From: an uncultured Clostridia bacterium
GTDB taxonomy: Bacteria > Bacillota > Clostridia > TANB77 > CAG-508
DNA: 64,000 nt
Direction of reading: 5' to 3'
Assembly (NCBI GenBank): GCA_947624195.1
Contig: CANQJH010000001.1
Span: 49,233-113,232 of the forward strand
Translations under genes and position numbers: made by a program
The notes under the pieces: model-generated
What the model was told of the DNA's origin: nothing
Seen by the model: the letters and a program-made list of their open reading frames with translations, nothing else
The model's database searches: none
In this document: piece after piece, positions 6,927-41,914 of the stretch
Layout of the letters: every line of letters starts with the position of its first letter
How positions within the stretch are numbered: position 1 is the stretch's first letter

Positions 6927-7700
6927 ATGCTATTAAAAGATAAAAAAATATTAATAATGGGTATAAGAAATAAATGGAGCATAGCTTATGGAATAGCAAA
7001 ATCAGCATATGAAAATGGAGCAAAATTAATATTTACGTATATGGGAGAAGACAATAAAGAAAAAATAGAAGAATTAATAAAAGATTTTGAGGGAAGTAAA
7101 GCATATGTATTAGACGACGCAGCAGAAGATGATTTGGTTTCTGAAGTGTTTACAAAAATAAAAAATGAAAATGGCAAAGTTGATGGAATAGTACATGCAA
7201 TAGCACACGCAAATACAGAAGATTTGCACAATGATTTCATATATACTTCAAAAGAGGGATTTAGCCATGCAAACGATGTAAGTGCTTATTCATTTGTGCT
7301 AGTTGCAAGAATGGCAAAAGAGTTAGATATGTTAAATGAAAATGCAAGTTTAGTAACCCTAACTTATTATGGATCAACCAAAGTGCTAGAGGGATATAAC
7401 ATAATGGGAATTGCAAAAGCAGCACTAGAATCAAGTGTAAGATATTTAGCAGAAAACCTTGGAAAACAGGGGGTAAGAGTAAATGCAATTTCAGCAGGCC
7501 CAATAAAAACATTATCAGCAAAGGGAATAAAAGATTTTAGCAAGATTTTAACCATTGTGGAAGAAAAAGCACCATTACACAGAAACGTAACAATAGAACA
7601 AGTTGGAAATGTATCTACATTTTTGTTAAGTAACATGTCAGAAGCGATAACAGGACAAGTAATATACGCTGATAGTGGTTACAATATTATGGGAATTTAA
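6927..7700 (+). CDS. fabI: enoyl-ACP reductase (NADH)
   Basis: FabI-type short-chain dehydrogenase with IAYGIAK and GPIKTLSA motifs. Confidence 0.85.
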   Translation: MLLKDKKILIMGIRNKWSIAYGIAKSAYENGAKLIFTYMGEDNKEKIEELIKDFEGSKAYVLDDAAEDDLVSEVFTKIKNENGKVDGIVHAIAHANTEDLHNDFIYTSKEGFSHANDVSAYSFVLVARMAKELDMLNENASLVTLTYYGSTKVLEGYNIMGIAKAALESSVRYLAENLGKQGVRVNAISAGPIKTLSAKGIKDFSKILTIVEEKAPLHRNVTIEQVGNVSTFLLSNMSEAITGQVIYADSGYNIMGI

Positions 7701-7840: not shown

Positions 7841-7871
7841 TAGTACAACTTTCAAGAAAGTTGTATATAAA

Positions 7872-7900
7872 ATGTCGTTAAGTAATGTACTTAACGACAT
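7872..7900 (+). terminator. palindromic hairpin followed by a T-rich run
   Basis: atgtcgttaagta-atg-tacttaacgacat followed by ttttatata; a related hairpin occurs at 9571..9598. Confidence 0.4.
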
Positions 7901-8033
7901 TTTATATACGTATTTTATACTAAAAAATAAACAAAATCAAGATATAAAAAAATTTTTTTATATAAATAAAATTTAAAATATAAAAAGTTCGCAAAGTGTT
8001 GATTTTAAAAGCTAATCTCCGAAAAATAAATTA

Positions 8034-8056
8034 TCATTAAGTACATTACTTAATGA
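8034..8056 (+). promoter_or_regulatory. perfect inverted repeat (10-bp arms, 3-bp spacer) 27 nt upstream of the start codon
   Basis: tcattaagta-cat-tacttaatga; the same arms recur at 9731..9753 upstream of the paralog. Confidence 0.5.
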
Positions 8057-8082
8057 TAAAAATTTGAGAGGAGCAAAAGATA

Positions 8083-9399
8083 ATGAAAAACAAAGGAATA
8101 ACACTAGTTGCGCTAGTAGTAACAATAGTAATTATGTTAATTTTGGCAGGGGTAACATTGAGATTAGCTTTAGGGGAAAATGGATTGTTTAATATATCAA
8201 AACAATCAGTTGAAAAGTATGAGGAATCAGTCCAAAACGAAGAAGAAGAATTAGATGAATTACTAGAAGAATTAAAGCATATAATGCCAGAAGAGGCAGG
8301 AAAAGAGGTAGAAGTACCAAAAGCAGAGAAAGATAAGTGGGATTTAACAAAAGTAACACCAACAGCAGACGGAAAAGGAAATACAATACCAGTACCAAAA
8401 AATTTTTATTATGTAGGAGGAGATAAAGACTCAGGATTTGTAATATCAAGTGTAAGTGGAGATGATCTAAACAATAGTAAAAAAGGTAATGAATTTGTAT
8501 GGGTACCAGTAAAAGTTATAAATGATATGGTAATGTGTAAGGAACATACAACAGCTACAATTACTTTTGATGGAGTAAATTTTTCTTGTGATGGAAATGG
8601 ACACCCACATACACCGAACAAAGAATACTTGGTAGGACAACTTTATACTCCGACTACGGATAATGGATTTACTGCAGGAATACCATATACAGAATATAAT
8701 GAAAACATAATAAGGGAACCAGGATTGACAACAGTGGATACAGATGAAAATTTATCTAATTTTTTACAGACTACATCAAATGAATTTTTACAGGAGTTAC
8801 AAGAAGAATTTTATAAAATGGCAAAAAGTGTAGCAAAATATGGAGGATTTTATATAGGCAGATATGAAACATCAGGTTTAAATGACGGCGAGGAACCAAA
8901 AGTACAATCGGGACTAGTACCAACGGGAAACATTAACTGGTATACAATCTACAAAAATAGTAAAAAAATAGCCCAAGAAGGTTCAAATGTAACAAGTAGT
9001 ATGATATGGGGAAGTCAATGGGACTATGTACTAAATTGGATGCAAGACATAGAAAATCCAACATTGACAGAAGAAAAGAAATATTACATTATGGACAGTA
9101 GAGGAATGGGTTGGTATTATGGAGAAACAGGAAACAATGAGCATAAAACAGGAATAGATTTGATAAAGGACGGAAAAGTAACCAATAAAGAAAAAAATAT
9201 TTATGATTTTGCAGGAAATTTTGAGGAATTAAATATGGCTTGCTCGGGCGGTACAGTACGTGCTTTACGTGGAGGATCTTATAAGCTGGAGGGAAATGTT
9301 CGTCCTGCTTGTAACCTTCGACTGGTAAGACCTGACGCTATATATGAGTGGGTTAGTAGTCGAGTTACACTTTGTATAAACTTGAATCCGGGGGAGTAA
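8083..9399 (+). CDS. pilin-like-anchored surface protein with a C-terminal FGE-sulfatase/C-type-lectin-like domain; candidate DGR target 1
   Basis: N-terminus KGITLVALVVTIVIMLILAGV resembles a type IV prepilin signal but lacks F+1 and E+5; a coiled-coil stalk follows. The C-terminal motifs IYDFAGNFEE, RGGSY and RLVR match the FGE-sulfatase fold. The 3' end is GC-rich and A-depleted. Confidence 0.8.
   Translation: MKNKGITLVALVVTIVIMLILAGVTLRLALGENGLFNISKQSVEKYEESVQNEEEELDELLEELKHIMPEEAGKEVEVPKAEKDKWDLTKVTPTADGKGNTIPVPKNFYYVGGDKDSGFVISSVSGDDLNNSKKGNEFVWVPVKVINDMVMCKEHTTATITFDGVNFSCDGNGHPHTPNKEYLVGQLYTPTTDNGFTAGIPYTEYNENIIREPGLTTVDTDENLSNFLQTTSNEFLQELQEEFYKMAKSVAKYGGFYIGRYETSGLNDGEEPKVQSGLVPTGNINWYTIYKNSKKIAQEGSNVTSSMIWGSQWDYVLNWMQDIENPTLTEEKKYYIMDSRGMGWYYGETGNNEHKTGIDLIKDGKVTNKEKNIYDFAGNFEELNMACSGGTVRALRGGSYKLEGNVRPACNLRLVRPDAIYEWVSSRVTLCINLNPGE
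9235..9396 (+). other. putative DGR variable-region-like patch in target 1
   Basis: Local GC far above the window background, depleted in A, with rare codons (TCG, GGC, CGT, CGA); coincides with the last beta-strands of the lectin-like fold. Confidence 0.45.
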
Positions 9400-9566: not shown

Positions 9567-9783
9567 AATTGTCGTTAAGTAATATACTTGACGATATATT
9601 CATATATGTATTTTATACTAAAAAATAAACAAAATCAACACTTTATATAATTTTCTTTTTGAAATAAAATTGAAAATATAAAAAATCTGTAAAGTGTTGA
9701 TCCTCAAGACTAATCTCCACAAATAAATTATCATTAAGTATATTACTTAATGATAAAAATAAAAAATTGGAGAGGTGCGGAAG
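9567..9783 (+). repeat. duplicated 5' regulatory region (copy 2), including the operator-like palindrome at 9731..9753
   Basis: Homologous to 7870..8082; contains tcattaagta-tat-tacttaatga. Confidence 0.7.
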
Positions 9784-11076
9784 ATGATGAAAAACAAAGG
9801 AATAACACTAGTTGCTTTAGTAGTAACAATAATAATTATGTTAATTTTAGCAGGGGTGACATTAAATATTGCTTTAGGTGATAACGGATTAATAAAGCAA
9901 ACAAAAAAAGCAGCGGATTTAGCAAAAGAGTCTATGAAAAATGAGGAAGAAGATGTAGGAAAACTAGTTAATCAATTAGATGAAGTAATAAAAGAAAGTT
10001 TACCAAGTACAGTAAAAGAAGCAATAGAAACAGAAGAAATATTTACAGTTAATAAGAAAATAACGGATGAAAGTGGAAAAACAATGGTAGTACCAAAAGG
10101 CTTTAAAGTAATAGAAGAAACTAATATAGATAGTGGCGTAGTCATAGCAGACGGAGAAGGTAATGAGTTTGTATGGGTACCATGTGAAGATGGTGAATAT
10201 AAAAAACATGTATATGATGTAAAACAAATAGATGATGCTACTACTACTTTAGCTGATGGAGTAAACAAAGAAAAAGGTTGGACTACATTACAGTATAGAA
10301 AATATAGTGATTGGAAAGATGAAGTAGATGAAGTGGCAAATATAAAAAGTGTGGAAGATAATAAAGGATTTTATATAGCGAGATATGAAGCGGGTGTACC
10401 CAAGAATGCAGATTTTTATGTAGAGGCTTCTGCTGAAGGAGTTAAAAATAAAAATTATCCACAAAGTAAAAATGATATAAGTGATAATATAAAGCCAGTA
10501 AGTAAAAAAGGAGTGCAAACATGGAATTTAATAAGTCAAATAAATGCTAAAACCGTATCCGAAAGAATGTATAGCGGAGAATCTTACGGAGTAAGAAGTC
10601 AACTAGTAGATGGAACTGCATGGGACACTGCCGTAACATGGATGTCAAAAGAGTACGTAGGAATAGAAAAAAATAGTACAAATTATGGAAATTATAATAA
10701 CACACCTACAAAAGAAATAACAGGCTTATATGCAGCACATACTTATAGTGATGGTTGGCAATTAGCAACAAGTTATGGTTATGGAAAAAAAAGTATAGGT
10801 GGAAGAAGTAGTTTGAGAACTGAAATAGCGACAGGCTTAGTAAATGAGTTTAAACTAAAAAACATATATGATATGGCTGGAAATATGTATGAATGGACTA
10901 CAGAATATGGATATCATGATGGTGGAACCAGCAGTACAAAATATGTTGTTCAGCGAGGAGGATGTCCTACTGACGATGGTGGTGTCCACCCAGTTTCTGT
11001 TCGTAGTGGCTATTGGGCAGAAACGGTAGAAAATAATCCTGTATTTGGTTTTCGAGTTGTACTTTATGTAAAATAA
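9784..11076 (+). CDS. pilin-like-anchored protein with a C-terminal FGE-sulfatase-like domain; candidate DGR target 2, paralog of target 1
   Basis: Same N-terminal KNKGITLVALVVTIIIMLILAGV anchor and stalk. C-terminus carries IYDMAGNMYEWT, QRGGC and GFRVV. The ORF track starts at a GTG at 9775; the ATG at 9784 has a better RBS. Confidence 0.8.
   Translation: MMKNKGITLVALVVTIIIMLILAGVTLNIALGDNGLIKQTKKAADLAKESMKNEEEDVGKLVNQLDEVIKESLPSTVKEAIETEEIFTVNKKITDESGKTMVVPKGFKVIEETNIDSGVVIADGEGNEFVWVPCEDGEYKKHVYDVKQIDDATTTLADGVNKEKGWTTLQYRKYSDWKDEVDEVANIKSVEDNKGFYIARYEAGVPKNADFYVEASAEGVKNKNYPQSKNDISDNIKPVSKKGVQTWNLISQINAKTVSERMYSGESYGVRSQLVDGTAWDTAVTWMSKEYVGIEKNSTNYGNYNNTPTKEITGLYAAHTYSDGWQLATSYGYGKKSIGGRSSLRTEIATGLVNEFKLKNIYDMAGNMYEWTTEYGYHDGGTSSTKYVVQRGGCPTDDGGVHPVSVRSGYWAETVENNPVFGFRVVLYVK
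10920..11073 (+). other. possible variable-region-like 3' segment of target 2 (weaker composition signal)
   Basis: Moderately GC-enriched relative to the gene body; homologous in position to the patch in target 1 but with a codon indel relative to it. Confidence 0.3.
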
Positions 11077-11296: not shown

Positions 11297-11731
11297 TTGG
11301 AGAAATTAAACTTAGCAACAATAAATAAGGCTCATAGTAAAAACATAAAAATAGGTGAATTAAATGAGCAAGTTATAGAATTATTAAAATTAGATTTAAA
11401 ACCACAGAATATTAATATTTGGTCATCCAGATTAAAAGAACATTGTGAAAAACACAAAGATGAATACTCTAGTGTAAATGCATATAATCAAGCAATAAGA
11501 TTTATTCCGGAGATAATTAAAAATCCAGATTATGTTGGATTACATAGAAATGGTAATATTCAGTATGTAAAAAAGTTAGAAGACATATCTTTAGTCGGAA
11601 TACAAATTTTAAAAGGTAGTGGGCACTTATTATTTAGAACAATTTTCCCAATTTCAGAAACAAAGTTGAAAAAATCTGTAAGAAGTGGAAAGCTAATAGA
11701 ATTTAAAAATAAACAAAGAGAAAATACATAA
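11297..11731 (+). CDS. hypothetical protein, 144 aa
   Basis: Intact ORF whose 3' end is duplicated at 7740..7840; no family recognised with confidence. Confidence 0.5.
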   Translation: MEKLNLATINKAHSKNIKIGELNEQVIELLKLDLKPQNINIWSSRLKEHCEKHKDEYSSVNAYNQAIRFIPEIIKNPDYVGLHRNGNIQYVKKLEDISLVGIQILKGSGHLLFRTIFPISETKLKKSVRSGKLIEFKNKQRENT

Positions 11732-12148
11732 AGTATTTCCTCTTTTTAATTTTGGTTAATAGGTAGGACGGCGTACCCTACATCTACTTATAAGACCATC
11801 TCTGGCGTGATAGCTGCCACTTTCTATCCTCAATTAACCTACTATGAGTGTACTCATAATTTTAAAAATTATGCATTACCTATATGTAAATATATTACAA
11901 AAATCTCAATAAGTCAATAGGTTTTAATTATTTTTTACAATTGTTGAACTAATTATAACTATATTTTAACATATTATTATAATTATGTCAACGGCTAAGA
12001 TATAGAATTTTTTCGTTTGTGCCTTTTTTTACTTTTTAATTGTAAAAAAATTTACATACTTTATTTTAATATTCGCCTCACTTTAAATTATTTTTTGTTT
12101 TTTTGCTCCTTTCTATATTTTACCAGTACAAGATGACACAATCTCCCT

Positions 12149-20388: not shown

Positions 20389-20598
20389 AAAAATTATTAT
20401 TAATTATATAGTTTAATAATAAATTTTTTCACTTAAAGTATATGGTATTAAAATATTTTTGTCAATACTATGTTGATAAAAATTTTTTTATTTTTTTCAT
20501 CAAAATAATTCAAAAAGCCTGATATAACTGTGAAACAAGTATTTTTAAATTATTATTAAACTATATATTTAATAATAAATAAAAAATAGGAGGAAACC
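20389..20598 (+). repeat. 5' regulatory region of target gene 3, duplicated (about 95% identity) upstream of target gene 4
   Basis: Near-identical to 24787..24994 down to the RBS (ataggaggaaaccatg). Confidence 0.8.
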
Positions 20599-21807
20599 AT
20601 GGAAAAACAAAAGAAACAAGGAATTTTGAACATTAAAAACAGTAAAGGTATAACGTTAGTAGCATTAGTAATAACCATAATAATAATGCTAATATTAGCA
20701 GGGGTGGCATTAAGACTAGCATTAGGAGAAAATGGTTTATTTAAAATGTCAGAGAAAGCAGTAGAGAAGTATAAAGAGGAAGCAGCAAAGGAAGAAAATA
20801 CACTAGGGAATATGGAAAAACAACTAAAGTACATGATAGAGGGCTATGTGCCAGACAGAAGTATGCTAAAAGTAGGAGATGAAGTAAATTATACGCCCCA
20901 AACGGCAAAAACGACATATACTTTAGAAGGTAACAAAAGTGGATACGGAGACTATACAAGTAGTAAACCTAAAACAATGACAAAAGCAACAGACCAAGAA
21001 ATAAGTCAAGAGAATTATACATGGAAGATAATGGACATAAATAGTAAAACAGGAGAAGTAAAAATAATGGGCGTACCAACAAGTAGTATGCCTACAGTAT
21101 ATTTCAAAGGAGCATTAGGATATAACAATGGAGTATATCTTTTGGATGATATATGTAAAACATTATATAGTAATAGTGACTTGGGAGTAACAGCAAGAAG
21201 TATAGATATAGAAGATATTGAAAGTAAAATGAATGACAAAGGAAGAGATGCAAAAAATGATTATATATCAGAAAATCAAACAACCAAAGAATTTAACGGA
21301 AGTAATGCATATTACCCTAACATATATAAATATCAACAAGATTCAAATATAGATGGAACAGAAAAGACAGAAGGAATAAGTGAAAGTGATGATGGAACAA
21401 AAACAGAAGCAGGAATACCAATTGAGCATGCAACAAATGTAGAAGGATATACACAAGCAGAAACAAGTATCACAGTAAAAGGAACATACTATTATGCAAC
21501 GCAAAATGCAGGATATTTTGATGATGAAGACTTTTACAATTTAATGTTTAAAACAGGTACATATTATTGGCTTGCTTCGCGTTATTCTGGTTGCTTCTCG
21601 AGTAGCTCTTGTGCTGACTTTGGGCTTCGCATTGTGGCCAGCTCTAGCATCAACGGTTACAAAATGTTCAATTCGGATGGCGATTACGACGACGACAATA
21701 TTCGCGTTTGCCCGGTAGTTTCTCTAGGGGCTAATATCCAAATCACAAGAGATGGAAACGCAGGAGCATGGGACTTATCGAAGGACCCAAATTTTGGTGG
21801 ATTTTAA
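20599..21807 (+). CDS. pilin-like-anchored protein with a C-terminal DUF1566/Fib_succ-major-like (C-type-lectin superfamily) domain; candidate DGR target 3
   Basis: N-terminus KGITLVALVITIIIMLILAGV plus an ALGENGLFKMSEKAVEKYKEE stalk shared with the other three targets. The C-terminus has YYW...NIRVCPVVSL resembling the YWSS...VRCVR motif of DUF1566. Confidence 0.75.
   Translation: MEKQKKQGILNIKNSKGITLVALVITIIIMLILAGVALRLALGENGLFKMSEKAVEKYKEEAAKEENTLGNMEKQLKYMIEGYVPDRSMLKVGDEVNYTPQTAKTTYTLEGNKSGYGDYTSSKPKTMTKATDQEISQENYTWKIMDINSKTGEVKIMGVPTSSMPTVYFKGALGYNNGVYLLDDICKTLYSNSDLGVTARSIDIEDIESKMNDKGRDAKNDYISENQTTKEFNGSNAYYPNIYKYQQDSNIDGTEKTEGISESDDGTKTEAGIPIEHATNVEGYTQAETSITVKGTYYYATQNAGYFDDEDFYNLMFKTGTYYWLASRYSGCFSSSSCADFGLRIVASSSINGYKMFNSDGDYDDDNIRVCPVVSLGANIQITRDGNAGAWDLSKDPNFGGF
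21561..21735 (+). other. putative DGR variable-region-like patch in target 3 (strongest composition signal)
   Basis: The first ~90 nt contain roughly 10% A by hand count, against roughly 35-40% A in flanking coding sequence. Dense TGC/TCG/CGC/GGC codons; the composition falls back to normal about 80 nt before the stop. Confidence 0.5.
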
Positions 21808-24786: not shown

Positions 24787-24994
24787 AAAATTATTATTAA
24801 TTATATAGATTAATAATAAATTTTTTCACTTAAAGTATATGGTATTAAAATATTTTTGTCAATACTATGTTGATAAAAATTTTTTTATTTTTTTCATCAA
24901 AATAATTCAAAAAGCCTGATATAACTGTGAAACAAGTATTTTTAAATTATTATTAAACTATATATTTAATAATAAATAAAAATAGGAGGAAACC
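24787..24994 (+). repeat. duplicated 5' regulatory region (copy 2) upstream of target gene 4
   Basis: See 20389..20598. Confidence 0.8.
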
Positions 24995-25981
24995 ATGAAA
25001 AAACAAAAGAAAGAAAACAAGTTCAACTTAAAAGAACAAGGTATAACGCTAGTTGCGTTAGTAGTAACAATAATAATACTTTTAATCTTAGCAGGAGTAA
25101 CAATCAACATAGCTTTAAGGGAAAATGGATTATTTAAAATGTCAGAGAAAGTAGTAGAGAAGTATAAGGAAGAAGCAGGAAAGGAAGAGGAAACATTACA
25201 GGATTTAGAACAACACATAAAAAATAATACACCCGTTGAACCAGCAGAAGAACCTAAAGAGCCTATAGGAAAAACACCGTATGTAGGATATTATGCAAGT
25301 AGAGATGGAATAACAGTAGATGGAATAATATATGCAGACCAAGCAGTAGGAAATACAAACGGAACAAAATGGAGTGATGGTGATGGAACCTACACAATAC
25401 CAATAAAAGAAGAAGGCTTAAAGGAATACTATATAAGTCAAGAATCATACACAACAGAAGCCTTTGGACCAAAACCTGTGTTAACACCAATAAATGATGA
25501 AGGAGAAGACAGATTTTATATCATGTCACTTGAAGATTTTGGAGGAAAAGGACAAAGTTATTATTGGTATTATAGCGCATTTAAAAATATGAGTGATTAT
25601 AGTACAGCAACATCAACAAAATTTGGAACTGGAAAAACCAATACAGAGAACATGGTAGCAAAGTGGACGGCGGGAGAAAGTGAAGATGGTTATGGAAAGC
25701 AAGATGGGGGAAGCACATATAAAGATATATGGGGATACTTTTCAAGAAAAGAAATACCAGAAGGATGGTTTTTACCATCAAGAGGAGAATTAGCAGCATT
25801 TATGCAAGAATTAGGGATAAACAGCAGTAATTATTCTAATCAATTTCAATTATCTAGTTATTACTGGTCGTCGTCGCAGTTCAATTTTAACTACGCATGG
25901 CTCGCGTACATGCTTATTGGTTGTATGAGCAGCTACACTGTGAATTACGGCCGCTGCGTGCGCCTGAGTGCGACTTTCTGA
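24995..25981 (+). CDS. pilin-like-anchored protein with a C-terminal DUF1566-like domain; candidate DGR target 4, immediately upstream of the RT
   Basis: N-terminus QGITLVALVVTIIILLILAGV and a conserved stalk. The C-terminus SSYYWSSSQFNFNYAWLAYMLIGCMSSYTVNYGRCVRLSATF fits the YWSS...AW...R.VRCVR signature. Confidence 0.75.
   Translation: MKKQKKENKFNLKEQGITLVALVVTIIILLILAGVTINIALRENGLFKMSEKVVEKYKEEAGKEEETLQDLEQHIKNNTPVEPAEEPKEPIGKTPYVGYYASRDGITVDGIIYADQAVGNTNGTKWSDGDGTYTIPIKEEGLKEYYISQESYTTEAFGPKPVLTPINDEGEDRFYIMSLEDFGGKGQSYYWYYSAFKNMSDYSTATSTKFGTGKTNTENMVAKWTAGESEDGYGKQDGGSTYKDIWGYFSRKEIPEGWFLPSRGELAAFMQELGINSSNYSNQFQLSSYYWSSSQFNFNYAWLAYMLIGCMSSYTVNYGRCVRLSATF
25855..25978 (+). other. putative DGR variable-region-like patch at the extreme 3' end of target 4
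   Basis: Roughly 18% A by hand count over ~120 nt. Contains TCG-TCG-TCG, GCG, CGC, GGC and CTG codons that are rare elsewhere in this AT-rich genome. Confidence 0.5.
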
Positions 25982-26178: not shown

Positions 26179-27321
26179 GTGTATATGGATAATAAGCTAA
26201 CTTTTGAAGATTTATATGAAGCATATAATTTATGTTTAAAAAATAAAAAAAATAAAATAGGAACATATAATTTTGTAAACTATAATTTATGCAAAAATTT
26301 AATGGAGCTACTAGAAGAATTAAATAATAAACAATACATTCAAAGACAATCTAATTGTTATGTAGTTAAGGATCCAGCATTGAGAGAAATATATGCAGCT
26401 CAATTTTTTGACAGAGTAGTACAGCATTTTTATATGAAAGAAGTAGAACATATTTTAGAAGAACAATTAGTTGACGGTTGTTGTTCATGTAGAAAAAATA
26501 AAGGTAATGATTATGCTCTTCAATTATTAAAGAAATATCTTAAAGTAGTATCGAATAATGGGAAAAAAGACTGTTACTTTCTTAAAATTGATTTATCTGG
26601 ATATTTTATGTCAATAGATAGAAAGCAAATAAGTCAAAAGTTCTTAAATCTTATAAGCAATAAATATAAAGGACCATATAAAGAATTACTCATTTATTTA
26701 ACTCCAATTATATTTGAAAATAATCCGGCAGTGAACTGTAAGTATAAATGTAATGAAAAAGTAAGAAACCTAGTACCTGAAAGAAGAAAAATGAATCCGA
26801 AATCCGATTATGGAATGGCTATAGGTAATTTGACTTCTCAGGCAGGTAGCAATTTTAATCTCAGTGAATTTGATAATTACGTTGTATATAAACTAAATCT
26901 AGTTAATTATATTAGATATGTTGACGATATGGTGATAATTTCAAATAATAAACAAGAGTTACAAAATGCAATGCCGTATATAATAAATAAACTTAAAGAA
27001 ACTAATCAATCTATAAGTGAAAAGAAAACTAAAATAGATACTGCGTATCATGGAGTACCATTTTTGGGAAAAGTTTCTTTTCCATACGGTTATCAAAAAG
27101 CTAAAAAATCGACAATAGTGAGAGTATATAAAAGGGGTAGAGAAATTAGATATAAGGACACAGACAATTTATTAGCAAAAACAAATTCGCAAATTGGATT
27201 GCTAAAAGGATATAACTGCAGAAAACTAATATTAAATTATTCTAAAATTATACAAAACAAAACGGGAGACGAAATTTATTTGAATGAAGAAATGTTAAAA
27301 TTTTGTAAAAAGAATAAATAA
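26179..27321 (+). CDS. diversity-generating retroelement reverse transcriptase
   Basis: RT motifs ALREIYAAQFFDRVVQH (motifs 1/2), LKIDLSGYFMSIDRK (motif 3), AIGNLTSQ (the DGR-specific GxxxSQ motif 4) and YVDDMVII (motif 5). The likely start is the ATG at 26185 with an aagagg RBS; the track begins at a GTG at 26179. Confidence 0.85.
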   Translation: MYMDNKLTFEDLYEAYNLCLKNKKNKIGTYNFVNYNLCKNLMELLEELNNKQYIQRQSNCYVVKDPALREIYAAQFFDRVVQHFYMKEVEHILEEQLVDGCCSCRKNKGNDYALQLLKKYLKVVSNNGKKDCYFLKIDLSGYFMSIDRKQISQKFLNLISNKYKGPYKELLIYLTPIIFENNPAVNCKYKCNEKVRNLVPERRKMNPKSDYGMAIGNLTSQAGSNFNLSEFDNYVVYKLNLVNYIRYVDDMVIISNNKQELQNAMPYIINKLKETNQSISEKKTKIDTAYHGVPFLGKVSFPYGYQKAKKSTIVRVYKRGREIRYKDTDNLLAKTNSQIGLLKGYNCRKLILNYSKIIQNKTGDEIYLNEEMLKFCKKNK

Positions 27322-40927: not shown

Positions 40928-41914
40928 CTATTTGTAATTGGCAAGAGGATTTGCTTCAACTGCTTTTCTTACTTGGTCATTATCAACGTGCGTGTATATT
41001 TCGGTAGTGGATATGCTTTGATGTCCTAGTAGTTCTTGGAGAGCTCTTATATCAACTTGTCCATATTTATACATTAACGTAGCAGCAGTATGTCTCAATT
41101 TGTGAGTAGAGTATTTAGTTGTATCTAACCCAGCTTTTTGCAATTCTTTAGAAACAACATTTTCAACTGTACGCTTGCTAATTCTTTGCCTGTAGGAACT
41201 TAAGAATAGTGCCTTATCAGAATTTTTGGAATCTTTTTTTGCATCAATTGGTCTGACTTTTAAATATGAATTAATTGCATCAATACAAGCTTTATTAAGA
41301 TAAATGGTACGTTCTTTGTTGCCTTTACCAATTACAGTAAGTTTGCAGTCATCAAATTTAATATCAGATATATTAATTCCAACAAGTTCAGAAAGACGCA
41401 TACCACAATTTAAAAATAGGGTAATTATAGCATAATCTCTTTCTTTATTTTTATTTTCCTCATCCTCAGATATAGTAGTAAGAAGTTTTTGACTGTCTTC
41501 TAATGTTAAATATTTTGGTAGCCTTTTATTTAGCTTTGGAGTCTCAATATTTTGTGCAGGATTATTTTTAATTGTGTTAGTAGTAACAGTCAAATATTTA
41601 AAAAATATTCTTATGGTTGAAATTCTTTTAGCGCATGTAGCAGGTCCACATTTTCTGTTTAGAGAAAGATATGAGATGAAAGTATGTATATCTTCTGGAG
41701 TTATTCTTTCTAAATCAGATAATTTATAATCATTTATTTTGATATCATCAAAATTCTCTTCATTTGTCAAATGAAAATGATATTTCATATATTTTAAAAA
41801 CATATTTAAATCGCAATTATACTGGTCCACAGAAGCAGGGGATTTTTTTTGATATGTTAGCGAATAATCAAGAAATGAATTTAAAAAGGTAGGATTTTCC
41901 TCAGTTTTTATCAT
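40928..41914 (-). CDS. tyrosine site-specific recombinase (XerC/XerD family)
   Basis: C-terminal catalytic box HKLRHTAATLMY...GHQSISTTEIYTHV with the nucleophilic Tyr. Confidence 0.75.
   Translation of the reverse strand: MIKTEENPTFLNSFLDYSLTYQKKSPASVDQYNCDLNMFLKYMKYHFHLTNEENFDDIKINDYKLSDLERITPEDIHTFISYLSLNRKCGPATCAKRISTIRIFFKYLTVTTNTIKNNPAQNIETPKLNKRLPKYLTLEDSQKLLTTISEDEENKNKERDYAIITLFLNCGMRLSELVGINISDIKFDDCKLTVIGKGNKERTIYLNKACIDAINSYLKVRPIDAKKDSKNSDKALFLSSYRQRISKRTVENVVSKELQKAGLDTTKYSTHKLRHTAATLMYKYGQVDIRALQELLGHQSISTTEIYTHVDNDQVRKAVEANPLANYK

What the first reader, a model, noticed from the sequence alone, without database searches (positions are those of the whole stretch)
7870..8082. 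Duplicated 5' regions carrying a perfect 10-3-10 palindrome just upstream of the RBS
About 215 bp upstream of the first two family members are ~80% identical. Both keep tcattaagta-N3-tacttaatga intact 27 nt before the start codon, at 8034..8056 and 9731..9753. Conservation of a perfect inverted repeat through otherwise diverging DNA suggests a dimeric repressor operator or a 5'-UTR RNA structure controlling expression of the displayed proteins.
Basis: seen in the sequence. Interest (0 to 1): 0.55.

Follow-up and report, generated by a model that had tools for sequence, protein, structure and literature searches.

The report
Invertible promoter switches before pilin-like genes
The conserved palindrome is one of two inverted recombination sites flanking a ~136-bp flippable DNA segment that carries a promoter, an on/off switch (here probably off) for pilin-like surface proteins in an uncultured gut Clostridia bacterium; this is a known kind of mechanism.

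Summary
TCATTAAGTA-N3-TACTTAATGA occurs perfectly at 8034-8056 and 9731-9753.

Each gene is therefore preceded by two inverted sites around a 136-bp segment. That segment holds a sigma-70-type promoter 14 nt from one site, reading outward and away from the gene in this assembly.

Public genomes and metagenomes gave 93 such pairs, 70 non-redundant, mostly next to pilin-like genes in uncultured gut Clostridia:
- In 65 of 70 pairs the spacers are exact reverse complements (6 expected), although the spacer differs between loci.
- A promoter with an extended -10 sits 14-17 nt from one site in 56 of 61 switches.
- In three orthologous loci and one paralogous pair the flanks are the same but the inner segment lies in both orientations. 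Marker bases in the inner half-sites move with it.

This indicates site-specific DNA inversion (an inverton, phase variation), not a repressor operator. Both window copies appear OFF. The recombinase was not identified in the window. Inversion of the window's own loci is inferred, supported only by an assembly break at the predicted junction.

It is a new member of a known kind, of moderate interest.

The parts
7875..7897 (.). Unit 1 distal recombination site (IR-L): TCGTTAAGTA-ATG-TACTTAACGA. It lies inside a perfect 22-3-22 hairpin at 7863-7909.
   Evidence: (I2, I5)
7898..8033 (.). Unit 1 invertible inner segment (136 bp).
   Evidence: by homology of architecture with loci shown to invert
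7912..7940 (-). Unit 1 promoter on the minus strand: -35 TTGATT (7940-7935), 17-nt spacer, -10 TAAAAT (7917-7912). The -10 ends 14 nt from IR-L. The promoter reads away from the gene, which is the OFF orientation.
   Evidence: the block GTATTTTATACTAAAAAATAAACAAAATCAA is identical in units 1 and 2; the position matches the family rule
8014..8020 (+). Unit 1 anti-Shine-Dalgarno AATCTCC. It is predicted to pair with the SD across the palindrome hairpin in OFF-state read-through RNA.
   Evidence: prediction only
8034..8056 (.). Unit 1 proximal recombination site (IR-R): TCATTAAGTA-CAT-TACTTAATGA.
8066..8073 (+). Unit 1 Shine-Dalgarno GAGAGGAG.
8083..9399 (+). Gene 1: a 438-aa pilin-like protein with a weak N_methyl match at the N-terminus. 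It is the gene this switch controls.
9572..9594 (.). Unit 2 distal recombination site: TCGTTAAGTA-ATA-TACTTGACGA.
   Evidence: I4
9595..9730 (.). Unit 2 invertible inner segment (136 bp).
9610..9638 (-). Unit 2 promoter on the minus strand: TTGATT-17-TAAAAT, OFF orientation.
9712..9718 (+). Unit 2 anti-Shine-Dalgarno AATCTCC.
9731..9753 (.). Unit 2 proximal recombination site: TCATTAAGTA-TAT-TACTTAATGA.
9784..11076 (+). Gene 2: a 430-aa pilin-like protein with a weak FGE-sulfatase-like match at the C-terminus. It is the gene this switch controls.
20394..20578 (.). Same architecture with a different inverted-repeat family upstream of family member 3. The 32-nt repeats are 20394-20425 and 20547-20578 (94% complementary, asymmetric core TATATAG), with 121 nt between them. 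The inner segment holds TTGACA-17-TATACT on the minus strand (20465-20437).
24791..24975 (.). Same second inverted-repeat family upstream of family member 4. The repeats are 24791-24822 and 24944-24975 (91% complementary). The inner segment holds TTGACA-17-TATACT on the minus strand (24862-24834).

Best explanation
Each palindrome is a recombination site, and each gene has two of them. The two sites lie in inverted orientation, defined by their asymmetric 3-bp centre, around a 136-bp segment. Together they form an invertible promoter switch (inverton).

Proposed mechanism:
- A site-specific recombinase binds each 10-3-10 site as a dimer. By inference it is a tyrosine recombinase with an odd, roughly 7-bp overlap (TA-NNN-TA).
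- The recombinase pairs the two sites of one locus and exchanges strands within the centre, flipping the segment.
- The segment carries a sigma-70/sigma-A promoter whose -10 ends about 14-17 nt from one site and reads outward through it.
- In the ON orientation the promoter transcribes through the proximal site, which then forms a 5'-UTR hairpin, into the SD and the pilin-like gene.
- In the OFF orientation, as assembled here for both units, it fires away from the gene.
- In this family an anti-SD (AATCTCC) at the other end of the segment is predicted to mask the ribosome-binding site of read-through transcripts in the OFF state.

Status of each step:
- Shown: the site pairs, the spacer covariation, the promoter consensus at a fixed distance, and both orientations with half-site exchange at homologous loci in other genomes.
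- Inferred: inversion of the window's own two loci, the class and identity of the recombinase, promoter activity, and the anti-SD effect.
For: 1. Site pairs in the window. The distal and proximal sites are 159 bp apart in both units, with reverse-complementary spacers.

2. Wider survey. Scans of public genomes and metagenomes returned 135 loci holding 93 pairs spaced 126-192 bp (all but one 153-192 bp), of which 70 are non-redundant. In 65 of the 70 the spacers are exact reverse complements. Shuffling partners gives 6.1 on average and at most 17 in 10,000 shuffles. Sixteen spacer classes occur.

3. Promoter. Of 61 switches where the promoter side can be decided, the -10 ends 14-17 nt from a site in 56, TG sits at -15/-14 in 48, and the spacer is 17 nt in 49. 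A promoter score of at least 10 is reached by 70%, against 7% of shuffled ends. The window promoter block is identical in units 1 and 2. The rival plus-strand candidate loses its -10 in unit 2.

4. Both orientations at homologous loci.
- L046 units 1 and 2: the flanks align as they stand, but the inner segments align (~85-90% identical; one search reports mean column identity 90%) only after one is reverse-complemented.
- L061 and L113 versus L071 and L102: one locus in four metagenome contigs, two in each orientation.
- L077 and L056 versus L079 and L118: the same pattern.
- L072 versus L108: opposite states by the promoter rule, not aligned.

5. Half-site exchange. In each aligned case the outer half-sites stay with the flanks and the marker bases of the inner half-sites move with the segment. 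This is what a crossover inside the site predicts.

6. Adjacent genes. They are mostly pilin-like. Among 54 non-redundant pairs with one adjacent gene, 41 are OFF, 6 ON and 7 undecided.

7. The window locus itself. In sample ERZ27249389 one contig ends at window 8091 and another starts at 8037. The 55-nt overlap begins at the first base shared by the predicted ON and OFF junctions.

8. Candidate recombinase. Tyrosine recombinase genes are bracketed by the same sites, 1358-1361 bp apart, in other genomes. Homologues 37-40% identical sit next to sites in genomes rich in switches.

9. RNA folding. The SD is predicted masked in OFF read-through RNA and free in the predicted ON mRNA.
Against: - No contig shows the window's own units in the ON orientation. 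The four or five near-identical assemblies that could be read are all OFF. A pattern specific to this species found nothing in the metagenome collection.
- The assembly break could also come from a variant at 8092 rather than at 8036.
- No recombinase of the site-associated family lies in the window or within 10 kb of either end. The only recombinase in the window (40928-41914) is Xer-like and has no sites beside it.
- The promoter calls are consensus matches, not measurements. The window promoter is weaker (9.5 of 12.5) than most of the family, and a plus-strand candidate scores 8.5-9.
- The strong OFF bias (41 to 6) could be read as a fixed arrangement. The ON cases at identical flanks argue against that.
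Confidence: 0.87

Rival explanations
1. The palindrome is the operator of a dimeric transcriptional repressor, with distal and proximal operators 159 bp apart (about 15 helical turns) cooperating by DNA looping to repress the pilin-like genes.
For: The sites are perfect dyad symmetry of the 10-3-10 type. There are two per gene at a fixed spacing of 159 bp in both units. They are conserved while the surrounding DNA diverges.
Against: - An operator places no constraint on the spacer, yet 65 of 70 pairs have exactly reverse-complementary spacers that differ between loci.
- Looping does not predict that the inner segment occurs in both orientations between identical flanks, with exchange of the inner half-sites.
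- The only well-conserved promoter points away from the gene.
- No regulator gene is adjacent.
Confidence: 0.05
2. The palindromes act mainly as RNA. They would form a 5'-UTR hairpin, or a long-range stem between the distal and proximal copies, that controls mRNA stability, termination or translation.
For: - The proximal site forms a stable 13-bp hairpin just upstream of the SD.
- In read-through RNA the hairpin is extended by anti-SD:SD pairing.
- The distal site of unit 1 scores as terminator-like.
- Spacer covariation would also fit RNA pairing between the two copies.
Against: - There is no meaningful Rfam match.
- The spacer pairs are strict Watson-Crick complements with no systematic G-U tolerance. 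One half-site combination would give C-A mismatches.
- RNA pairing does not explain the DNA rearrangement seen between identical flanks, nor the promoter fixed 14-17 nt from one site.
- The anti-SD is present in only about a quarter of OFF loci.
- An RNA role is likely to be secondary to the switch, not an alternative to it.
Confidence: 0.04
3. The units are miniature inverted-repeat transposable elements (MITE-like) that inserted upstream of these genes. The palindromes would be transposon ends without a regulatory role.
For: The units are short (about 180-215 bp), bounded by inverted repeats, and present in many copies per genome, for example about 11 pairs in MAG CANRSD01.
Against: - Orientation differences at identical flanks exchange only the inner half-sites and leave the outer half-sites with the flanks. 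The breakpoint therefore lies inside the site, not at element ends.
- In the window the duplicated block runs from the distal site through the 5' end of the gene.
- A promoter sits at a fixed distance and nearly always next to one gene family.
- No transposase was found beside the units. Target-site duplications were not looked for.
Confidence: 0.03

Closest known systems
Clostridioides difficile RecV-dependent invertible switches (cwpV, flgB, cmrRST, pdcB); literature PMC7446863, PMC8844915, PMC9286219
   Same: Both belong to the class Clostridia. In both, short segments of about 150-300 bp flanked by inverted repeats lie directly upstream of surface or motility genes, at several loci per genome, and a tyrosine recombinase encoded elsewhere is the likely driver. 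Both give phase-variable ON/OFF expression, with regulation partly through 5'-UTR RNA.
   Different: From my own knowledge, the C. difficile inverted repeats are imperfect, differ from locus to locus, and are not themselves perfect palindromes. Here every site is the same 10-3-10 palindrome with only the 3-bp centre varying. Some C. difficile switches act after transcription initiation (a terminator or Rho) rather than by carrying the promoter. No RecV orthologue was established here.
Bacteroides invertible promoters (Mpi and Tsr recombinases) and invertons catalogued by PhaseFinder and DeepInverton (PMC11602134, PMC11892184)
   Same: Both have many invertible promoters per genome in gut commensals, upstream of surface-structure genes, with a shared inverted-repeat motif within a family. 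Orientation is usually biased in populations. PMC11892184 reports a Clostridia-dominated inverton group linked to a tyrosine recombinase family.
   Different: The phylum, promoter type and repeat motif differ. From my own knowledge, Mpi is a serine recombinase. The motif TTAAGTA-N3-TACTTAA and the pilin-like targets were not found in the searchable literature.
E. coli fimS switch (FimB/FimE)
   Same: Both are promoter-carrying invertible elements that control a pilus or fimbrial subunit gene. fimS uses tyrosine recombinases and has an OFF-biased state.
   Different: From my own knowledge, fimS is 314 bp with 9-bp inverted repeats, its recombinase genes are adjacent, and there is a single locus. 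Here the segment is 136 bp with 23-bp palindromic sites, there are many loci, and the recombinase is not adjacent.
Heterospecific lox/FRT spacer variants (lox511, lox2272)
   Same: In both, identical binding arms surround a variable central spacer, and recombination is expected only between sites with the same spacer. That is the natural pattern seen here: spacers match within a pair and differ between loci.
   Different: The lox and FRT variants are engineered, with 8-bp spacers. Here the variable part is 3 bp, the variation is natural, and spacers are not unique within a genome (for example CTA four times in CANRSD01), so any insulation is partial at best.

Membership tests
Invertible promoter switch (inverton) | Two inverted repeats flank a short intergenic segment next to a gene start. 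| tested here: met
   Sites at 7875-7897/8034-8056 and 9572-9594/9731-9753. The repeats are 31 and 28 nt, 87% and 86% complementary.
Invertible promoter switch (inverton) | Both orientations of the segment occur between unchanged flanks. | tested here: met
   Met for the family: L046 units 1 and 2; L061/L113 versus L071/L102; L077/L056 versus L079/L118. For the window's own loci there is only indirect support: an assembly break at 8037. All readable assemblies are OFF.
Invertible promoter switch (inverton) | There is a promoter inside the segment whose direction changes on inversion. | tested here: met
   Met by sequence only. TTGATT-17-TAAAAT lies on the minus strand and is identical in both units. 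Across the family the -10 ends 14-17 nt from a site in 56 of 61 switches, and an extended -10 TG is present in 48 of 61. No transcription data are available.
Invertible promoter switch (inverton) | A cognate site-specific recombinase exists. | tested here: inconclusive
   Tyrosine recombinase genes are bracketed by, or adjacent to, the same sites in other genomes (L036, L018, L050). No member of that family lies in the window or within 10 kb of its ends. A Xer-like recombinase at 40928-41914 is an untested candidate.
Tyrosine-recombinase core site (two binding arms around a 6-8 bp overlap that must match between partners) | The arms have dyad symmetry, and the central region is identical between partner sites, with its asymmetry setting the outcome. 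| tested here: met
   The arms are 10-bp perfect repeats. The central 3 nt match between partners in 65 of 70 pairs and are always inverted. The crossover maps inside the site. Cleavage positions and the catalytic class cannot be tested here.
Repressor operator | The palindrome overlaps the promoter or transcription start site of the regulated gene, the DNA arrangement is fixed, and a cognate regulator exists. | tested here: not met
   The conserved promoter faces away from the gene and lies 120 bp from the proximal site. The arrangement is not fixed in homologous loci. No regulator gene is adjacent.
Known structured RNA family (Rfam) | A match to a curated covariance model at the gathering score. 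| tested here: not met
   Only sub-threshold miRNA and snoRNA chance hits on the hairpin.
Type IV pilin-like (class III signal peptide) proteins, as the regulated genes | An N-terminal prepilin cleavage/methylation motif followed by a hydrophobic helix. | tested here: inconclusive
   PF07963 N_methyl matches with E about 0.005 and 16-17 bits, below the 21.2-bit cutoff. The sequence reads KGITLVALVVTI..., with Ala rather than Glu at +5. There is no NCBIfam hit.

The most novel reading that the evidence does not exclude
One recombinase family may drive a dozen or more independent promoter switches per genome in uncultured gut Clostridia, including the CAG-245/TANB77 lineage. All switches would use the same palindromic binding arms but locus-specific 3-bp crossover cores. 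Those cores would act as a natural heterospecific address code. They would permit inversion within a locus while limiting rearrangements between loci, giving combinatorial, mostly silent expression of a large repertoire of pilin-like adhesins. Some families would add a built-in anti-SD that keeps the OFF state translationally silent.
Probability: 0.3. Interest if true: 0.65.

Novelty: new member of a known kind. Interest (0 to 1): 0.5.

Why it matters
This replaces an "operator or RNA hairpin" reading with a concrete, testable mechanism: phase variation by DNA inversion of pilin-like surface proteins in an uncultured, low-GC gut Clostridia lineage.

The same switch family lies upstream of pilin-like genes in Clostridium sp. 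CAG:245 and many human and animal gut MAGs. Pilins of the TANB77/CAG-245 clade have been linked to host immune effects (PMC11680825), although that paper concerns different, smaller pilins and does not mention inversion.

Three practical consequences follow:
- Most copies are assembled OFF, so expression of these proteins cannot be inferred from gene presence.
- Metagenome read orientation at these sites could be used to score ON/OFF states.
- The invariant arms with a variable core give a clean natural system for studying how core identity confines recombination among many sites.

Tried and rejected
- **Species-specific scan.** A metagenome scan combined the -10 block with the site, to count ON and OFF contigs of this very locus. 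It found nothing.
- **Exact-protein look-ups.** Look-ups of FabI, genes 1-4 and the end genes returned only near-identical assemblies, all in the window's orientation. Similar places are collapsed, so other samples could not be inspected.
- **Search for the recombinase.** The integrase family that is flanked by sites elsewhere has no homologue in the window. Nothing lies in the 10 kb beyond either end.
- **DGR link.** I first suspected that the pilin-like genes are targets of a diversity-generating retroelement driven by the RT at 26179-27321. No template/variable repeat was found between the RT region and the rest of the window, so I make no such claim.
- **Literature.** Searching for the motif gave only chance hits. 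The inverton papers checked do not list it.
- **Anti-SD as a general feature.** It is found in only about a quarter of OFF loci, so I keep it as a family-specific add-on.
- **Unique core per locus.** Rejected as a strict rule, because cores recur within one MAG.

Full report
**1. Observation**

The window is 29.7% G+C. The perfect palindrome TCATTAAGTA-N3-TACTTAATGA is at 8034-8056 and 9731-9753. With up to three mismatches there are four matches in the window, against 0.10 expected from shuffles.

They are 7875-7897 (TCGTTAAGTA-ATG-TACTTAACGA) and 9572-9594 (TCGTTAAGTA-ATA-TACTTGACGA), each exactly 159 bp upstream of the perfect copy.

The 3-nt spacers of the distal and proximal copies are reverse complements: ATG/CAT and ATA/TAT. 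The two copies of a unit are therefore inverted repeats of each other (31 and 28 nt, 87% and 86% complementary, I2 and I4), and they enclose 136 bp.

Homology between the two upstream regions begins at the distal site and runs into the genes. There is none further upstream. The gap from the proximal site to the ATG is 26 nt in unit 1 and 30-33 nt in unit 2.

**2. Surroundings**

- Upstream lie fatty-acid synthesis genes ending with fabI (6927-7700).
- The two downstream genes (8083-9399, 9784-11076) start MKNKGITLVALVVTI.... They give weak prepilin N_methyl matches and a weak FGE-sulfatase-like match at the C-terminus.
- Two further family members (20599-21807, 24995-25981) are preceded by the same architecture built from a different inverted repeat. 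These are 32-nt repeats, 91-94% complementary, with core TATATAG and 121 nt between them. The inner segment holds a near-consensus TTGACA-17-TATACT on the minus strand.

Inside units 1 and 2 the block GTATTTTATACTAAAAAATAAACAAAATCAA is identical in both. On the minus strand it reads TTGATT-17-TAAAAT, and the -10 ends 14 nt from the distal site. The plus-strand candidate next to the proximal site loses its -10 in unit 2. As assembled, the conserved promoter points away from the gene.

**3. Related sequences**

The pattern TCRTTAAGTANNNTACTTRAYGA was scanned against one genome per species and against metagenome contigs. It returned 51 and 84 loci. Most come from uncultured gut Clostridia MAGs of human, chicken and goat origin, including Clostridium sp. 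CAG:245.

Allowing three mismatches, these loci plus the window hold 93 site pairs spaced 126-192 bp (all but one 153-192 bp), of which 70 are non-redundant.

- **Spacer covariation.** In 65 of the 70 pairs the two spacers are exact reverse complements. Shuffling partners gives 6.1 on average and at most 17 in 10,000 shuffles. Sixteen spacer classes occur.
- **Promoter.** Of 61 switches where the promoter side can be decided, the -10 ends 14-17 nt from a site in 56, a TG (extended -10) is present in 48, and the spacer is 17 nt in 49. The -35 hexamers are TTGACT, TTGATT or TTGACA. A promoter score of at least 10 is reached by 70%, against 7% of shuffled ends.
- **Adjacent gene.** It is nearly always pilin-like (…KGITLIALV…).

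**4. Evidence for inversion**

- **Paralogous units.** In contig L046, two tandem paralogous units have alignable flanks. Their inner segments align (~85-90% identical; one search reports mean column identity 90%) only when one is reverse-complemented.
- **First orthologous set.** One locus encoding a 640-aa protein (MKNNEKTRKKK…) occurs in four metagenome contigs with essentially identical flanks. L061 and L113 have the promoter toward the gene. L071 and L102 have it pointing away.
- **Second orthologous set.** L077 and L056 are ON, and L079 and L118 are OFF.
- **Third set.** L072 and L108 differ in the same way by the promoter rule. They were not aligned.

In each aligned case the outer half-site stays with the flank, while the marker bases of the inner half-site travel with the segment. 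For L071 (OFF) to L061 (ON), the proximal site changes from TCATT.AAA.AATGA to TCATT.AAA.AACGA, and the distal site from TCGTT.TTT.AACGA to TCATT.TTT.AACGA. The breakpoint therefore lies inside the palindrome. That is the signature of site-specific recombination, not of transposon insertion or assembly error.

Among 54 non-redundant pairs with one adjacent gene, 41 are OFF, 6 ON and 7 undecided.

**5. The window's own loci**

All near-identical assemblies that could be read are OFF. A scan specific to this species found nothing.

One indirect sign exists. In sample ERZ27249389 one contig ends at window 8091 and another begins at 8037. This is a 55-nt overlap typical of a branching de Bruijn vertex. 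Position 8037 is exactly the first base shared by the predicted ON and OFF junctions, since 8036 is A in OFF and G in ON. A variant at 8092 would give the same picture, so this is only suggestive.

**6. Recombinase**

In several genomes a 376-aa tyrosine integrase gene is bracketed by the same sites, 1358-1361 bp apart, again with reverse-complementary spacers (L036, L039, L043, L053, L005, L015).

Homologues 37-40% identical lie directly beside sites in MAGs rich in switches (L018, L050). This makes that family the best candidate for the invertase. It also fits the odd-length centre of the site, which suits a roughly 7-bp staggered overlap better than the 2-bp overlap of serine invertases. 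That last point is my inference.

No member of the family lies in the window or within 10 kb of its ends. The Xer-like recombinase at 40928-41914 scores below the XerC/XerD cutoffs and is an untested alternative.

**7. RNA layer**

Folding predicts that an anti-SD (AATCTCC at 8014-8020 and 9712-9718) pairs with the SD across the palindrome hairpin in OFF read-through transcripts. The probability that the SD is unpaired is 0-0.25. In the predicted ON mRNA the SD is free: about 0.98 in unit 1 and partly free in unit 2.

A C-rich anti-SD sits next to the proximal site in 11 of 41 OFF loci, against 1 of 41 at the other end of the segment. It is a feature of some families only, and it remains a prediction. 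Rfam gives no meaningful match.

**8. Comparison and novelty**

This works like the invertible promoters of Bacteroides, E. coli fimS, and especially the multi-locus RecV switches of C. difficile. Invertons are catalogued widely, including in Clostridia (PMC11602134, PMC11892184).

I found no paper containing this motif or describing inversion upstream of these pilin-like genes. The TANB77/CAG-245 pilin paper does not mention inversion.

Distinctive details are the invariant perfect 10-bp arms, a 3-bp core that always matches within a pair but differs between loci, many copies per genome, and the strong OFF bias. Cores recur within one MAG, so an address-code role is at best partial.

**Verdict**

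The operator/RNA interpretation is partly supported: the site does control expression and is bound by a symmetric protein, but the mechanism is wrong. The best explanation is an invertible promoter switch, with confidence 0.87. It is a new member of a known kind, with interest 0.5.

Noticed in passing
window 20394-20578 and 24791-24975: Family members 3 and 4 have the same switch architecture built from a different inverted repeat: 32 nt, core TATATAG, 121 nt between the arms. The inner segment holds a near-consensus TTGACA-17-TATACT on the minus strand, so these also look OFF. This suggests a second recombinase or site specificity in the same genome.
   Followed up: partly
L036 3483-4866 (also L005, L015, L039, L043, L053): A 376-aa tyrosine integrase gene is bracketed by the same TTAAGTA-N3-TACTTAA sites, 1358-1361 bp apart, with reverse-complementary spacers. 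In L036 the neighbouring genes include a second tyrosine recombinase (278 aa) and a large 793-aa ORF, which I read as a mobile-element-like context (no domain search was run on the neighbours). The recombinase gene itself may be invertible.
   Followed up: partly
window 40928-41914 (-): A Xer-like tyrosine recombinase (328 aa) scores well below the XerC/XerD equivalog cutoffs. No palindromic sites lie beside it. It is a possible invertase candidate.
   Followed up: partly
window 26179-27321 (+): A reverse transcriptase gene (RVT_1) lies directly downstream of family member 4. No template/variable repeat was found between this region and the rest of the window, so a diversity-generating retroelement link is unproven.
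   Followed up: partly
window 7863-7909: The distal site of unit 1 is embedded in a perfect 22-3-22 hairpin that scores as terminator-like on both strands. It could stop the OFF-state transcript before it runs antisense into fabI. It is not conserved in unit 2.
   Followed up: no
window 12070-12128: A cluster of five substitutions within 60 bp separates this window from two otherwise identical assemblies (L001, L145). It lies in a non-coding-looking stretch downstream of the PBECR3 nuclease-like gene (11297-11731).
   Followed up: no
L061 about 2260-2285 (family of L061, L071, L102, L113): The centre of the invertible segment contains its own perfect palindrome, TGATTTTTTTTATAAAAAAAATCA. It reads the same in both orientations and may be an accessory-factor site.
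   Followed up: no
L046 3491-7830: This locus holds a tandem array of at least three pilin-like genes, each with its own switch, one ON and one OFF in the same contig. The N-termini of the ORFs appear frameshifted or truncated in the MAG assembly.
   Followed up: partly
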